This document shows, in pieces, positions 48,491 through 55,471 of a stretch of 64,000 bases of DNA. The position numbers and the translations under genes are program-made. The notes under the pieces are model-generated. The model ran no database searches and was not told where the DNA came from. It saw nothing but the letters and a program-made list of their open reading frames with translations. The stretch lies in NCBI RefSeq assembly GCF_009914755.1, contig NC_060934.1; one strand, written 5' to 3'. Within the stretch, counting starts at the first letter, position 1. Every line of letters starts with the position of its first letter. The DNA comes from the human T2T-CHM13v2.0 reference genome, Homo sapiens.

Positions 48491-49905
48491 AGCCCCAGTA
48501 CCCTCCTTGCATCTTCCTCAGGTCTGTCTAGGCTGGAAAGCTGTATTAACCTTAGAGCCCTTGTGAGTCTTGCAGCAAGTGCAGGTTTAGAGTGTTTTCT
48601 AGTGCTGAGATGGCTGCAGGACTCACAAGCCCAGGGAATACAACAGTCAGTTGGCTTAGAATCCCTGGAAGGCCCTCTGCAGGAGGACAGGCACAAACAA
48701 TGCCAGAGTGCAAAGACTGAAATAACCACTGAATCCCTCAATGCATAGACATTCTTACACTTCCACAAGCATCAATATTATTTAGGGAAATATGACCTCA
48801 CCAAATGGACAAAATAAGGTGCCAGAGACCAGCCCTAAAGTAATGGATGTGTGTGATCCCACAGACAAGGAATTCAAAATAGCTGTTTTAAGGAAGGTCA
48901 ATGAACTTCAAGAAAATGCAGAGAATCAATTCAGAAATTTATCGGAGAAATTTAAGAGAGGTTGAAATTTAAAAACTCAAAGAGAAATCCTGGAGGTAAA
49001 AAATACAATGAATAAAATAAAAAATGTGATAGAGGGCATCAGTAGCAGAATTGATCAGGCAGAAGAAAGAATAAGTGAGCTCAAAGATAGACTATTTGAA
49101 AATATAGTCAGAAGGGGGAAAAAGAATGAAAAGGAATGAAGAAAGCTTACAAAATGAAGCAACATCAAAAGAGTAAATATTTGGGTTATTGGAATTGAAG
49201 AAGGAACTGAGAAAGACAAAGGGGTAGAAAGATTATTCAAAAAAATAAGAGAAAACTTTCCAAAACCAACAATATTAGTATCTAGGTATAGGAAAGTCAA
49301 AGGTCACTAATCAGATTCAACTCTAATAAAAATACCCCCAAGATATAATCAAACTCTCAAAGGCCAAAGACAAACAGAAGATCTTGAAAGTGGCAAGAGG
49401 AAAAAAAAAATTACATATAATAGAGATCAGATACACCTGGCAGTATACTTCTCAGCAGAAACCCTACAGGCCAGGAGAGGGCATGATATATTCTGAGTGC
49501 TGAAGTGGGAAATAAATCAACCAATAGTACTGTACCTAGCAAAGTATTGTTCAGAAATGATGAAGAGATAAAGACTTTCCCAGACAAACAAAAGCTGAGG
49601 TAATTTATTGCTACATGACCTGTTGAACAAGAAATGCTAAAGGGAGCTCTTCAAACTGAAAGGAAAGGACAATAATGTGATTGTTATACTAATATTATAA
49701 AGATGGTGTTTGAACCACATATCTTAAGTAAGAATACTAAAAGACAAAACTATTTAAAAAATTTAAGATAGGCAATATAAAAAAATTTAGATTGTGACCA
49801 CAGAAATTCATAATGTGTGGGGAGAAGGGAGTTAATATGCACTTTTTTTGGTTTCTTTCTTTTCTTTTTGTGATCAAAGTTAAGTTGGTATCAGGTTTAA
49901 ATACA

Positions 49906-52900
49906 GGGGGGTGGAGCCAAGATTGCCAAATAGGAACAGCTCCAGTCTACAGCTCCCAGCGTGAGCAACACAGAAGACAGGTGATTTCTGCATTTCCAAC
50001 TGAGGTACTGGGTTCATCTCACTGGGGAGTGTTGGAAAGTGGGTACAGGACAGTGGGTGCAGTGCACTGAGCATGAGCCGAAGCAGGGTGAGGCATCGCC
50101 TCACCTGGGAAGTGCAAGGGATCAGGGAATTCCCTTTCCTAGTCAAAGAAAGGGAATCTCTGGGACACATTCAAAGCAGTGTGTAGAGGGAAATTTATAG
50201 CACTAAATGCCCACAAGAGAAAGCAGGAAAGATCTAAAATTGACACCCTAACATCACAATTAAGAGAACTAGAGAAGCAAGAGCAAACACATTCAAATGC
50301 TAGCAGAAGGCAAGAAACAACTAAGATCAGAGCAGAACTGAAGGAAATAGAGACACAAAAAACCCTTCAAAAAATCAATGAATCCAGGAGCTGGTTTTTT
50401 GAAAAGAATCAACAAAATTGATAGACCACTAGCAAGACTAATAAAGAAGAAAAGAGAGAAGAATCAAATAGATGCAATAAAAAATGATAAAGGGGATATC
50501 ACCACCGATCCCATAGAAATACAAACAACCATCAGAGAATACTACAAACACCTCTGAGCAAATAAACTAGAAAATCTAGAAGAAATGGATACATTCCTGG
50601 ACACATACACTCTCCCAAGACTAAACCAGGAAGAAGATGAATCTCTGAATAGACCAATGACAGGCTCTGAAATTGAGGCAATAATTAGTAGCTTACCAAC
50701 CAAAAAAAGTCCAGGACCAGATGGATTCACAGCCAAATTCTACCAGAGGTACAATGAGGAGCTGGTATCATTCCTTCTGAAACTATTCCAATCAATAGAA
50801 AAAGAGGGAATCCTCCCTAACTCATTTTATGAGGCCAGCATCATCCTGATACCAAAGCCTGGCAGAGACACAACAAAAAAAGAGAATTTTAAACCAATAT
50901 CCCTGATGAACATCGATGCGAAAATCCTCAATAAAATACTGGCAAACCCAATCCAGCAGCACATCAAAAAGCTTATCCACCATGATCAAGTGGGCTTCAT
51001 CCCTGGGATGCAAGGCTGGTTTAACATACACAAATCAATAAACGTAATCCAGCATATAAACAGAACCAACGACAAAAACCACATGATTATCTCAATAGAT
51101 GCAGAAAAGGCCTTTGACAAAATTCAACAACCCTTCATGCTAAAAACTCTCAATAAATTAGGTATTGATGGGACGTATCTCAAAATAATAAGAGCTATTT
51201 ATGACAAACCCACAGCCAATATCATACTGAATGGGCAAAAACTGGAAGCATTCCCTCTGAAAACTGGCACAAGACAGGGATGCCCTCTCTCACCATGCCT
51301 ATTCAACATAGTGTGGGAAGTTCTGGCCAGGGCAATCAGGCAGGAGAAGGAAATAAAGAGTATTCAATTAGGAAAAGAGGAAGTCAAATTGTCCCCGTTT
51401 GCAGATGACATGTTTGTATATCTAGAAAACTCCATTGTCTCAGCCCAAAATCTCCTTAAGCTGATAGGCAACTTCAGCAAAGTCTCAGGATACAAAATCA
51501 ATGTGCAAAAATCACAAGCATTCTTATACACCAGTAACAGACAAACAGAGAGCGAAATCTTGAGTGAACTCCCATTCACAATTGCTTCAAAGAGAATAAA
51601 ATACCTAGGAATCCAACTTACAAGGGACGTGAAGGGCCTCTTCAAGGAGAACTACAAACCACTGCTCAATGAAATAAAAGAGGATACAAACAAATGGAAG
51701 AACATTCCATGCTCATGGGTAGGAAGAATCAATATCGTGAAAATGGCCATACTGCCCAAGGTTATTTATAGATTCAGTGCCATCCCCATCAAGCTACCAA
51801 TGCCTTTGTTCACAGAATTGGAAAAAAACTACTTTAAAGTTCATATGGAACCAAAAAAGAGCCCGCATTGCCAAGTCAATCCTAAGCCAAAAGAACAAAG
51901 CTGGAGGCATCATGCTACCTGACTTCAAGCTATACTACAAGGCTACAGTAACCAAAACAGCATGGTACTGGTACCAAAACAGATATATAGACCAATGGAA
52001 CAGAACAGAGCCCTCAGAAATAATGCCGCATATCTACAAACATCTGATCTTTGACAAACCTGAGAAAAACAAGCAATGGGGAAAGGATTCCCTATTTAAT
52101 AAATGGTGCTGGGAAAACTGGCTAGCCATATGTAGAAAGCTGAAACTGGATCCCTTCCTTACACCTTATACAAACATTAATACAAGATGGATTAAAGACT
52201 TAAATGTTAGACCTAAAACCATAAAAACCCTAGAAGAAAACCTAGGCAATACCATTCAGGACATAGGCATGGGCAAGGACTTCATGTCTAAAACACCAAA
52301 AGCAATGGCAACAAAAGCCAAAACTGACAAATGGGATCTAATTAAACTAAAGAGCTTCTGCACAGCAAAAGAAACTACCATCAGAGTGAACAGGCAACCT
52401 ACAAAATGGGAGAAAATTTTTGCAATCTACTCATCTGACAAAGGGCTAATATCCAGAATCTACAATGAACTCAAACAAATTTACAAGAAAAAAACAAACA
52501 ACCCCATCAACAAGTGGGCAAAGGACATGAACAGACAGTTCTCAAAAGAAGACATCTATGCAGCCAAAAAACAGATGAAAAAATGCTCATCATCACTGGC
52601 CATCAGAGAAATGCAAATCAAAACCACAATGAGATACCATCTCACACCAGTTAGAATGGCGATCATTAAAAAGTCAGGAAGCAACAGGTGCTGGAGAGGA
52701 TGTGGAGAAACAGGAACACTTTTACACTGTTGGTGGGACTGTAAACTAGTTCAAACATTGTGGAAGTCAGTGTGTTGATTCCTCAGGGATCTAGAACTAG
52801 AAATACCATTTGACCCAGCCATCCCATTACTGGGTATATACCCAAAGGATTATAAAACATGCTGCTATAAAGACACATGCACACGTATGTTTATTGCGGC

Positions 52901-53355: not shown

Positions 53356-55471
53356 AAATACATGTTACAACTATGGGATGTGTTTTTTGTAAGCCCCATG
53401 GTAACTACATAGCAAAAAACTATAATGAATTCACCAAATGAAAAGCAACGAAATAAAACATACTACCAAAGAAAATCATTTAACCACAAAGGAAGATGGA
53501 AGAAAGGAAAGAAGGAATTAGACAACTAGAAAACAAGTAACAAAATGTCAGCAGTAAGTCCTTACCTGTCAAAAACACTGAAAGTAAATGGAATAAATTC
53601 TTCAATTAAAAGACATAATAGAGTGGCTGCATGGATTGAAAAAAAAAACAAGACCCAATGATATGCTGCCGAGAACAAACTCACTTCTATGAAGACACAC
53701 AGGAATTGAAAGTGAAGGGATGGATAAGACTATTCCATGTAAGTGGAAACCAAAAAAGAACAGGAGCAGCTATCCTTATGTAAAATAGACTTTAAGTAAA
53801 GAACTGTAAGAAGAGAAAGACAAGGTTATTGTAGAATGATAACAAGGTCAATTTAGCAACAAGATATAACAATAATCAATATATATGCACCCAACACTGG
53901 AGCACCCAAATATATAAACCAAATATTAATGGGTCTAAATGAAGATATAGACCGCAACACAATAATTGTAGGGAACTTCAATACCTCACTTTTGACAATG
54001 AACAAATTATCCAGGCAGAGAACCAACAAAGAAGCATGGGAGTTAAACTACATTCCATTAATAGACCACATTGATCTAAGAAGACATTTACAGAACATTC
54101 ATTCAACTGATGCAGAATACACGTTCTTCTTGTCAGCACATGCAATATTTTCCAGGATTAACCATATGCTAGGACACAAAACAAGTCTCAGCAAATTCAC
54201 AAAAGTAGAAATCATACCAAGTATCTTTTCTTATCACAACAGAATAAACCTAGAAATCAGTAACAAGAAGAATGTTAGAAACTTACAAATACATGGAAAT
54301 TAAACAACATGCTTCTAAACAACCAATAGGTCAATGAAGAAAATAAGAAGAAAATTTAAAAAATTTATTGAAATAAATGGAAATGGAAGCACAACATATC
54401 AGAATCTATGAGATACAGTAAAATTGGTACTAAGATGAAGTGTATAGCAATAAATGCCCACATCAAAAAAATAGGAAGACTCCAAATAAACAACCTAATG
54501 ATGCACCTCAAGGAACTGGAAAAGAACAAACCAAATCCCAAATTAGTAGACAAAAAGTAATAATAAATATCAGAACAGAAATAAGTGAATTTGAGACTAA
54601 GAAAATAAAGATTAACAAAATGTAAAGTTGGTTTTTTGAAAATATAAACGACATTGACATACTTTTACCTGGACTGATTAATAAGAAAGAGAGTAGGCAC
54701 AAAATAAATAAAATCAGAGACAAACAGAAACATTGTAACTGATGCTACAGAAATACAAAGATCATTAGAGACTACTATGAACAATTACATGCCAACACAT
54801 TGGAAAACCTAGAAGAAATGGAGAAATTCCTGGATACATACCACCTAGCAAGATTGAATCATGAAATAATTAAAAACCTTAACAGATCATTAATGAGTAA
54901 CAAGATAGAGGTAGTAATAAAAATCTTCCATCGAAGGAAAACCCAGAACCCTATGGCTTCACTGCTGAATTCTATGAGACATTTAAAGAAGAATGAACAC
55001 CAATTCTACTGAATTCTTCAGAAAATTGAAGAGGTGAACTACTTCCAAACTTATTACATGATACCAGCATTTCCCTGATGCCAAAGCCAGAAAAGAACAC
55101 AACAACAACATTTTTCCGACTAATATCTCTGATGAACATACATGTTCCTCAAGAAAACACCAGCAAACTGAATTCAACAACACATTAAAAAGATCATTCA
55201 CCATGATCAAGTGGAAATTATCCCATGGATGCAAAGATGGTTCAACATAAGCAAACAAATAAACATGATACATTATCAACATAATCAAAAGCAGAAATCA
55301 TATGGTCATTTCAATCATATTGAAAAAGCATTCAATAAAATTCAACTTCCTTTTATAAGAACCCTCAATAAATTGGGTATGGAAGAAGCATACTTCAACA
55401 ACATGATAAAGGACATATATGATAAGCCCACAGCTAATATCATACTAAATGGGGAAAAATCGAAAGCCTTT

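What the first reader, a model, noticed from the sequence alone, without database searches (positions are those of the whole stretch)
49899..53362. Probable retrotransposed spliced L1 with a non-canonical junction (5'UTR nt ~249 joined to ORF2 downstream of EN)
Seen: an intact L1 5' end at 49906, 249 nt of 5'UTR ending CCTAGTCAAAGAAAGGG, then directly AATCTCTGGGACACATTC from ORF2 (NLWD..), continuing to poly(A). It has a 7-bp TSD (aaataca) at a TTT/AAAT endonuclease-like site. The window's other L1s show that the upstream context of this ORF2 position is TACCAG|AATC (about 40521-40532 and the complement near 58680), so the missing piece ends in AG. Recalled L1PA4-6 consensus continues GAAAGGG|GTGACAG, so it begins with GT. 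Established: spliced integrated L1s (SpIREs) exist, but the well-known ones use a donor near nt 97 with acceptors in the 5'UTR/ORF1 region. Inference: about 2.6 kb (rest of 5'UTR, ORF1, EN) was spliced out, and the RNA was fully reverse transcribed using ORF1p/ORF2p supplied in trans. Caveats: the acceptor lacks a good pyrimidine tract, and the junction has 1 bp (G) of ambiguity.
Basis: partly seen in the sequence, partly recalled or inferred. Interest (0 to 1): 0.8.

Follow-up and report, generated by a model that had tools for sequence, protein, structure and literature searches.

The report
Internally deleted L1, possibly spliced
A dead L1 retrotransposon copy lacks about 2.6-2.7 kb whose ends sit exactly on splice-like GT and AG signals, so it may be a rare copy of a spliced L1 RNA, but an ordinary deletion cannot be excluded.

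Summary
At window 49906-53355 lies one L1 insertion with an intact 5' end. It has 249 nt of 5'UTR joined directly to ORF2 at the Q|N boundary (NLWD...), a degenerate poly(A) and a 7-bp target-site duplication. Copies of the old host repeat elsewhere read straight through the insertion site, with one copy of the duplicated 7-mer.

In relatives the missing piece starts with GT (27 of 29) and ends with AG (19 of 20). A random deletion would fit GT..AG about 0.5% of the time.

In L1.3 numbering the sites are donor G247 and acceptor G2844. Both appear separately in a 2026 RNA-seq list of L1 junctions (247_579, 247_2390, 146_2844). The 247/2844 junction itself is not listed, and the list is nearly saturated for nearby GT and AG sites.

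Against splicing:
- The junction is unique in this 3.1-Gb genome.
- No other copy re-uses either site.
- The acceptor is no better than a median AG and has two AGs just upstream.
- 2 of 28 relatives carry large internal deletions without GT..AG, so several chance GT..AG cases are expected genome-wide.

Verdict: a plausible one-off spliced integrated L1 (about 0.5). The rivals are deletion after insertion (about 0.3) and a reverse-transcriptase jump (about 0.15). Orthologous primate loci would largely decide. Interest is modest.

The parts
49899..49905 (+). 5' copy of the 7-bp target-site duplication AAATACA, preceded by TTT (endonuclease-like site TTT/AAA)
   Evidence: Paralogues of the old host repeat (L069-L071) carry one copy of AAATAC(A/C) and read straight through the insertion site.
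49906..50154 (+). L1 5'UTR, element nt 1-249, from the native 5' end (GGGGGGTGGAGCC) to GAAAGGG. It contains the SD97-type site CTGAG|GTAC, with the exon ending at element nt 99.
   Evidence: It is 92-96% identical to 39 other 5'-intact L1 copies.
50154..50155 (+). The junction GAAAGGG|AATCTC. It has 1 nt (G) of ambiguity. It equals L1.3 nt 246 joined to nt 2845.
   Evidence: The junction is unique in the genome.
50155..53334 (+). Remainder of ORF2, starting about 52-55 codons after the endonuclease domain, plus the 3'UTR. The reading frame is lost after about 85 codons and has many stops.
   Evidence: Translation. Collinear with another L1. Endonuclease domain end on relative L047.
53335..53355 (+). 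Degenerate poly(A) tail (A10 C A4 C A4 C)
53356..53362 (+). 3' copy of the target-site duplication AAATACA

Best explanation
The element is most likely a one-off spliced integrated retrotransposed L1 (SpIRE-like).

Proposed course of events:
1. A primate L1PA-type element was transcribed from its own promoter.
2. The RNA was spliced from a weak donor in the 5'UTR (GGG|GTGACA, G247 in L1.3 numbering) to a weak acceptor in ORF2 (ACCAG|AAT, G2844).
3. This removed the rest of the 5'UTR, ORF1, the spacer and the endonuclease domain.
4. The shortened RNA, which encodes neither working protein, was copied to its very 5' end by L1 proteins supplied by another element. It integrated by target-primed reverse transcription at a TTT/AAA site.

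Shown: the anatomy, the single insertion event, and the GT..AG ends in relatives. Also shown is that each site is listed as used in L1 RNA-seq data.

Inferred: that splicing made this junction, and that mobilisation was in trans.
For: - The target-site duplication, poly(A), endonuclease-like site and native 5' end enclose both pieces. Paralogous copies of the host repeat show an uninterrupted site with one copy of the 7-mer.
- The missing piece begins with GT in 27 of 29 relatives and ends with AG in 19 of 20.
- Chance expectation for GT..AG is 0.47-0.60%.
- On a crude, recalled weight matrix the donor scores at least as well as the experimentally proven SD97-type donor: rank 20 against rank 26 of 94 GT sites.
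- In L1.3 numbering the donor is G247. It lies 149 nt after G98 in two young copies.
- The acceptor is G2844. This is the only offset that puts 7 of 7 listed intron ends on an AG; the next best offset gives 3 of 7.
- Table S11 of PMC13221650 lists three sense-strand junctions using these sites: 247_579 (1 of 9 LF-1 samples), 247_2390 (1 of 12 CD8 T-cell samples) and 146_2844 (3 of 11 MCF-7 samples).
- Retrotransposed spliced L1 RNAs are established. There are 131 copies in three junction classes, and 97/853 copies as well. RNAs from a 97/976 construct, which could not move in cis, moved at low levels only when ORF1p was supplied in trans (PMC5860796, sections read).
- Among 3,598 somatic tumour insertions, the structural classes named in the figure legend I read include no plain internal deletion without inversion, and 81 insertions were set aside there. 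This bears against the reverse-transcriptase-jump rival (bioRxiv 10.1101/2024.08.27.596794, passages read).
Against: - The 25-nt junction is unique in the 3.1-Gb genome at up to 2 mismatches. The three 1-mismatch hits of a 20-mer have no L1 flanks.
- The acceptor is not re-used. Of 9 exact hits with a changed upstream context, only this element has 5'UTR upstream. Three further hits look like 1-nt indels and were not inspected.
- The donor is not re-used. The other 16 of 17 hits are small indels.
- The 247_2844 junction is absent from the RNA-seq list.
- That list is barely discriminating. It contains 14 of 19 GT sites in nt 1-280 and 7 of 16 AG sites around the acceptor. Most entries come from a single sample. 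Reads from deleted genomic copies aligned to one reference could mimic junctions (my inference).
- The acceptor ranks 180 of 322 AG sites, has 7 of 20 pyrimidines upstream, and has AGs 14 and 21 nt upstream.
- All described SpIRE classes use the donor at nt 98, not 247.
- Large internal deletions with non-splice ends are common. 2 of 28 relatives have one (293 and 744 nt) within their first 1.75 kb.
- With 4,743 first-look candidates for 5'-intact copies, a handful of chance GT..AG cases is expected genome-wide. This is my extrapolation.
Confidence: 0.5

Rival explanations
1. Deletion after insertion. A full-length L1 inserted normally, and a later genomic deletion of about 2.7 kb (end joining with 1 nt of microhomology) removed nt 250 to the ORF2 Q|N boundary. 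The GT..AG ends are a coincidence.
For: - Internal deletions are frequent in relatives. 2 of 28 have deletions of 293 and 744 nt in the first 1.75 kb, and neither has GT..AG ends.
- The junction has 1 nt of microhomology.
- The junction is unique and neither site is re-used.
- The acceptor is no better than a median AG.
- With thousands of 5'-intact copies (4,743 first-look candidates), a few chance GT..AG cases are expected. This is an extrapolation.
Against: - Only 0.47-0.60% of random deletions fit GT..AG.
- Both ends fall on sites that an RNA-seq list records as used, although that list is nearly saturated locally.
Confidence: 0.3
2. Reverse-transcriptase jump during insertion. While copying an unspliced L1 RNA, ORF2p dissociated near ORF2 nt 2845 and resumed at 5'UTR nt 246 of the same or another L1 RNA, using 1 nt of homology. 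It then ran to the 5' end. The GT..AG ends are a coincidence.
For: - The single target-site duplication and intact 5' end fit an event at the time of insertion.
- There is 1 nt of microhomology.
- Template switching by ORF2p is the accepted route, or one of two, for U6/L1 and other chimeric insertions (bioRxiv 10.1101/2025.02.02.635956, passages read).
Against: - The same 0.5% coincidence is needed.
- In a long-read catalogue of 3,598 somatic L1 insertions, the structural classes named in the figure legend I read include internal deletions only together with 5' inversions. 81 insertions were set aside there (bioRxiv 10.1101/2024.08.27.596794, passages read).
Confidence: 0.15
3. Copy of a deleted master element. 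The deletion arose in a genomic source copy, which was then transcribed and copied here in trans.
For: The retained 249 nt include the 5' end and the SD97-type region, which holds the RUNX3 site needed for promoter activity.
Against: No second copy with the junction exists in this genome. A source copy would have to be lost or absent from this haplotype.
Confidence: 0.05

Closest known systems
SpIREs (spliced integrated retrotransposed elements) of human L1: SpIRE97/622, 97/790, 97/976, 97/853 (Larson et al. 2018, PMC5860796)
   Same: - An L1 with target-site duplication, poly(A) and an endonuclease-type site.
- A native 5' end.
- An internal gap whose ends are GT..AG in the parent sequence.
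- For 97/976-type RNAs, dependence on L1 protein supplied in trans.
   Different: - The donor is G247, not G98.
- The acceptor lies in ORF2 (G2844), not in the 5'UTR or ORF1.
- The gap removes ORF1 and the endonuclease domain entirely.
- This is a single copy, whereas the 97/622, 97/790 and 97/976 classes have 116, 4 and 11 copies.
- The acceptor has no pyrimidine tract.
- No RNA or reporter evidence exists for this exact junction.
Spliced L1 RNAs that lose ORF1 (SpORF2 97->1837 and 290->1920; Belancio et al. 2010, PMC2896524) and the L1.3 junction list of PMC13221650
   Same: Splicing from the 5'UTR into or near ORF2 removes ORF1. The donor 247 and the acceptor 2844 each occur in the junction list.
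   Different: Those are RNA observations, not integrated copies. SpORF2 keeps a complete ORF2, whereas here the endonuclease domain is removed. The pair 247_2844 is not listed.
Processed pseudogenes (cellular mRNAs mobilised in trans by L1)
   Same: If spliced, the RNA was intron-less, polyadenylated and without working L1 proteins of its own. It was copied full length and has a target-site duplication.
   Different: The template is L1 RNA itself. Its L1 3' end might aid capture by ORF2p (my inference).
Ordinary internally deleted L1 copies
   Same: The gross structure is the same. Two of 28 relatives have such gaps.
   Different: Those two gaps do not have GT..AG ends, and this one does.

Membership tests
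SpIRE (spliced integrated retrotransposed L1) | Insertion by target-primed reverse transcription: target-site duplication, 3' poly(A), endonuclease-type target | tested here: met
   AAATACA at 49899-49905 and 53356-53362, poly(A) at 53335-53355, and TTT/AAA at the 5' side. Paralogues of the host repeat show the uninterrupted site.
SpIRE (spliced integrated retrotransposed L1) | Native L1 5' end, meaning a transcript from the L1 promoter that was copied completely | tested here: met
   GGGGGGTGGAGCC at 49906, the same start as in relatives L016, L023 and L029.
SpIRE (spliced integrated retrotransposed L1) | The missing segment begins with GT and ends with AG in the parent sequence | tested here: met
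   27 of 29 relatives have GT and 19 of 20 have AG. The chance rate is 0.47-0.60%.
SpIRE (spliced integrated retrotransposed L1) | The same junction is seen in L1 RNA or produced from a reporter | tested here: inconclusive
   The donor (247_579, 247_2390) and the acceptor (146_2844) are listed separately in Table S11 of PMC13221650. The pair 247_2844 is absent. The list is nearly saturated locally.
SpIRE (spliced integrated retrotransposed L1) | Independent insertions with the same junction and different target-site duplications (the evidence used for the described classes; supporting rather than strictly defining) | tested here: not met
   The junction is unique in the 3.1-Gb genome. Only this one genome was searched.
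SpIRE (spliced integrated retrotransposed L1) | Use of the G98U99 donor (true of all four described classes; not part of the definition) | tested here: not met
   The SD97-type site CTGAG|GTAC is retained unspliced at element nt 99/100. The junction uses the GT 150 nt further on.
SpIRE (spliced integrated retrotransposed L1) | The gap was present from the moment of insertion | not testable with these tools
   No primate orthologues or other human haplotypes are held. No paralogous copy of the locus exists; the flanks match only 70-79% identical copies of an old repeat.

The most novel reading that the evidence does not exclude
This is the first integrated L1 copy made from a 5'UTR-to-ORF2 splice (donor G247, acceptor G2844 in L1.3 numbering). 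If so, germline L1 RNA is spliced at weak sites that lack a pyrimidine tract. It would also mean that an L1 RNA lacking both ORF1 and the endonuclease domain can be captured in trans and copied to its cap. SpIREs would then be a broader and more varied class than the four donor-98 junctions described.
Probability: 0.5. Interest if true: 0.4.

Novelty: new member of a known kind. Interest (0 to 1): 0.3.

Why it matters
If this copy is a splicing product, it extends the known spliced integrated L1s in two ways. It adds a donor other than nt 98 and an acceptor inside ORF2. It also gives a natural example of an L1 RNA without either working protein being mobilised in trans, much like a processed pseudogene.

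It would further suggest that some of the many low-level L1 junctions seen in RNA-seq leave germline copies, and that censuses using a few fixed junction probes undercount SpIREs.

The copy itself is old and broken. It lies where no gene or functional element is annotated, so it has no evident consequence for the host. If the gap is a plain deletion, the finding is ordinary.

Tried and rejected
Searches for re-use of the junction or its sites
- Junction elsewhere. A 25-mer at up to 2 mismatches found only this locus. A 20-mer at up to 3 mismatches gave 788 hits against 492 for the reversed control, so it was too noisy. Of the 8 hits cut as loci, L002 is this locus itself, the three 1-mismatch hits (L003-L005) match only the 18-21 nt around the junction and have no L1 flanks, and L006-L009 gave no alignment.
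- Acceptor with another donor. Of 9 exact hits, 4 were ordinary L1 copies with point changes or a small gap just upstream. Four were 5'-truncated copies starting at or near this position (L062, L060, and L066 and L068, which share identical upstream sequence). The ninth was this element. A complementary pattern gave 3 hits that look like 1-nt indels; I did not inspect them. These exact 18-mer patterns miss diverged copies.
- Donor with another acceptor. There were 17 hits: this element, 12 copies with one G fewer in the G-run, 2 with one G more, and 3 with small changes. The pattern catches only about 40% of possible junctions and needs 16 exact bases.

Other dead ends
- Paralogous copy of the locus retaining the missing piece: none. 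The flanks match only old-repeat copies at 70-79% identity.
- Subfamily and age. No repeat library is held, so I could not name the subfamily. The element differs from the majority state of its relatives at 5 of 238 5'UTR sites and 4 of 299 ORF2 sites. This is biased low, because the relatives were chosen for likeness.
- Splice-site scoring. No MaxEnt model is available. I used crude weight matrices recalled from memory, so the ranks are rough.
- Numbering the acceptor from intron length in young copies gave 2834 and 2840 because of small indels. I rejected that route in favour of the AG-spacing fit, which gives 2844.

Literature
- Belancio et al. 2006 and 2008, the original L1 splice-site maps, are not held. 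A 247 or 2844 site may be described there.
- Papers searched. None of the papers I opened from these searches, and no listed title or abstract, reported a 5'UTR-to-ORF2 SpIRE.
- I did not open the supplements of Larson et al. (S1 Table and S1 Data). By design they list only junctions from donor 97.

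
Full report
What is there

The window holds one L1 insertion on the plus strand. It starts at 49906 with the native L1 5' end (GGGGGGTGGAGCC). 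It runs through 249 nt of 5'UTR to GAAAGGG at 50154 and continues without a break at 50155 with AATCTCTGGGAC. That sequence translates as [24 protein letters not shown]..., which is ORF2 sequence. The frame is lost after about 85 codons and many stops follow, so the copy is dead.

The body ends at 53334 and is followed by a degenerate poly(A) at 53335-53355. The 7-mer AAATACA occurs at 49899-49905 and again at 53356-53362, with TTT before the 5' copy. On the bottom strand this reads ...ATTT/AAA, a variant of the L1 endonuclease target.

Element nt 249-3439 align as one collinear block (3207 columns, 86.9% identity) with an older L1 on the minus strand at 58683-55522. The only structural oddity is therefore the single internal junction.

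One insertion event

Both flanks turned out to belong to an old interspersed repeat. Thousands of first-look candidates and the 39 or more scored matches were 68-82% identical. In several copies the two flanks abut.

Three such copies (L069-L071) were aligned to the flanks joined with one copy of the 7-mer. They read straight through. The chr7 copy reads ...ATCAGTTTTAAATACCTGTTATAAC..., against ...ATCAGGTTTAAATACA|TGTTACAAC... here. This independently confirms the empty site and the 7-bp duplication. It also shows that the 5'UTR piece and the ORF2-to-3' piece arrived together, or that a full-length element arrived and later lost its middle.

The ends of the missing piece

I searched the window's own 3.1-Gb assembly with the 249-nt 5'UTR piece. 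There were 4,743 first-look candidates, 40 were scored, and the first 30 became loci. Of the 29 loci other than this element, 27 continue GAAAGGG|GTGACAG. L021 has GA and L033 has TT.

A search with the first 300 nt after the junction was followed by fetching 20 of the 39 other matches. Of these, 19 read ...AACATACCAG|AATCTCTGGG, and L059 has CAC. The window's two other L1s show the same TACCAG|AATC.

With the 1-nt (G) ambiguity placed one way, the missing piece is therefore a GT..AG unit.

Its length is:
- 2705 nt in L047, a relative that spans both sites;
- 2588 and 2594 nt in two younger copies;
- 2593 and 2591 nt in two more, from coordinates alone.

On L047 the Pfam endonuclease match ends at residue 144-147 of a stretch in which the junction falls after residue 199. 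The acceptor therefore lies about 52-55 codons past the endonuclease domain.

How surprising is GT..AG?

I simulated 400,000 random deletions of at least 200 nt on L047. Only 0.47% could be placed as GT..AG, and 0.60% among those with 1 nt of microhomology. Taken alone, that favours splicing by about 170 to 1. The background matters, however.

Among the 28 independent relatives, 2 carry large internal deletions within only their first 1.75 kb (L012, 293 nt; L028, 744 nt). Neither has GT..AG ends. Extrapolated to 6 kb and to thousands of 5'-intact copies, on the order of a thousand internally deleted copies are likely. A handful of chance GT..AG cases would then be expected genome-wide. This is my extrapolation from a small sample.

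Are the sites credible splice sites?

I used crude weight matrices recalled from memory, because no MaxEnt model is available.
- The donor GGG|GTGACA ranks 20 of 94 GT sites on L047.
- The experimentally proven SD97-type donor ranks 26. The donor is therefore no worse than a known working L1 donor.
- The acceptor ranks 180 of 322 AG sites.
- Only 7 of its 20 upstream bases are pyrimidines.
- Other AGs lie 14 and 21 nt upstream. The nearest pyrimidine run is more than 30 nt away, so the used AG would be the third AG after it.

These features count against the acceptor.

Published RNA evidence

Larson et al. 2018 (PMC5860796; sections 7, 8, 15, 21, 23 and passages read) describe the following:
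- 116 copies of SpIRE97/622, 4 of 97/790 and 11 of 97/976, and a fourth class, 97/853. All use donor G98U99, with acceptors in the 5'UTR or ORF1.
- The copies were found with fixed junction probes, so a different junction would not have been detected.
- RNAs from a 97/976 construct, which could not move in cis, moved at low levels only when ORF1p was supplied in trans.

Belancio et al. 2010 (PMC2896524, passages read) report RNA splices 97->1837 and 290->1920.

A 2026 paper from the same group (PMC13221650; passages and two parts of Supplementary Table S11 read) lists 570 junctions from short reads aligned to L1.3, of which 194 are on the sense strand.

I mapped my two sites onto L1.3 numbering using tool data.
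- Donor: in two young CCGAG-type copies the donor GT lies 149 nt after the GT of the nt-98 donor, so the donor is G247.
- Acceptor: numbering the G as 2844 is the only offset that puts all 7 listed sense intron ends in that stretch on an AG. The next best offset gives 3 of 7.
- Consistency check: Larson's statement that A974G975 are positions 2-3 of ORF1 codon 22 agrees with this. The check also needs the ORF1 length and the codon number of the junction, both of which I recalled.

The list contains 247_579 (1 of 9 LF-1 samples), 247_2390 (1 of 12 CD8 T-cell samples) and 146_2844 (3 of 11 MCF-7 samples). It does not contain 247_2844. Each site has therefore been recorded in use, but this is weak support, for three reasons.
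- The list includes 14 of the 19 GT sites in nt 1-280 and 7 of the 16 AG sites around the acceptor.
- Most entries come from one sample.
- Reads from transcribed genomic copies with deletions, aligned to a single reference, could look like junctions (my inference).

Recurrence tests

- The 25-nt junction occurs once in the genome at up to 2 mismatches.
- The looser 20-mer search was dominated by noise (788 hits against 492 control). Its three 1-mismatch hits match only the 18-21 nt around the junction and lack L1 flanks.
- I looked for copies with the acceptor exon preceded by something other than its normal context. There were 9 exact hits. Four were ordinary copies with point changes or a small gap just upstream, four were 5'-truncated copies starting at or near this position, and one was this element. 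Three more hits have strings that 1-nt indels would give; I did not inspect them.
- I looked for copies with the donor exon followed by something other than its normal continuation. There were 17 hits. All but this element were small indels.
- All of these searches require exact anchors and one genome, so they would miss diverged or polymorphic copies.

Weighing the explanations

For splicing:
- exact GT..AG ends;
- a donor as good as the proven one;
- both sites recorded in RNA;
- an established pathway for spliced L1 RNAs to integrate;
- the named structural classes of 3,598 somatic insertions include no plain internal deletion without inversion.

Against splicing:
- the junction is unique;
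- neither site is re-used;
- the acceptor is median in quality;
- every described SpIRE class uses the donor at nt 98;
- there is a sizeable background of random internal deletions.

My estimates are splicing 0.5, deletion after insertion 0.3, a reverse-transcriptase jump at insertion 0.15, and copying of a deleted master 0.05. No second copy of the junction exists to support the last of these.

If the element was spliced, the RNA lacked ORF1 and the endonuclease domain. It must then have been mobilised wholly in trans, like a processed pseudogene. That step is inferred.

Age and family

No repeat library was available, so I could not name the subfamily.
- The closest copies are 92-96% identical in the 5'UTR and 96-98% in ORF2.
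- The element differs from the majority state of its relatives at 9 of 537 sites. This is biased low because the relatives were chosen for likeness.
- All 29 relatives share the CCTA(G/C) form of the 5'UTR rather than the CCGAG form of the younger copies.
- The close relative L047 has a missing piece about 110 nt longer than the younger copies.

Novelty and importance

Spliced integrated L1s are known. This would be a new member with a new donor and an ORF2 acceptor, and it is a single, dead copy. The supplied annotation lists no gene or functional element in the window. My four paper searches turned up no report of a 5'UTR-to-ORF2 SpIRE. Belancio 2006 and 2008 are not held and may list these sites. 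The decisive test, comparing orthologous primate loci and other human haplotypes, cannot be run with the tools here.

Noticed in passing
window 49500-49905 and 53363-53800: The L1 sits inside an old interspersed repeat. Both flanks match thousands of first-look candidates, and the scored matches are 68-82% identical. In several copies the two flanks abut, for example on chr7, chr1 and chr17. The family was not identified.
   Followed up: partly
window 55522-58683 and 61733-61953, minus strand: An older L1 on the minus strand aligns to the element's ORF2-to-3' part (86.9% identity) and, about 3 kb further on, to its 5'UTR nt 13-247 (78.9%). It appears to be a near full-length copy that keeps the region missing from the element under study.
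   Followed up: no
L012 (chr18:27.36 Mb), L028 (chr8:31.85 Mb), L034 (chr5:43.18 Mb): Relatives with their own internal changes. L012 has a 293-nt deletion and L028 a 744-nt deletion, neither with GT..AG ends. L034 has a 52-nt internal duplication.
   Followed up: partly
Supplementary Table S11 of PMC13221650 (not sequence): The published L1.3 junction list covers 14 of 19 GT sites in nt 1-280, and the paper reports 370 antisense against 194 sense junctions. Many entries occur in one sample only. Some may be alignment or library artefacts, or reads from deleted genomic copies, rather than splicing.
   Followed up: partly
L074 and L072 (chr1, two young CCGAG-type L1 copies), atlas donor 253: The listed sense donor at L1.3 nt 253 (three junctions) falls on GA, and the one at nt 39 on TC, in both young copies examined. 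These two list entries do not sit on a canonical donor in those copies.
   Followed up: no
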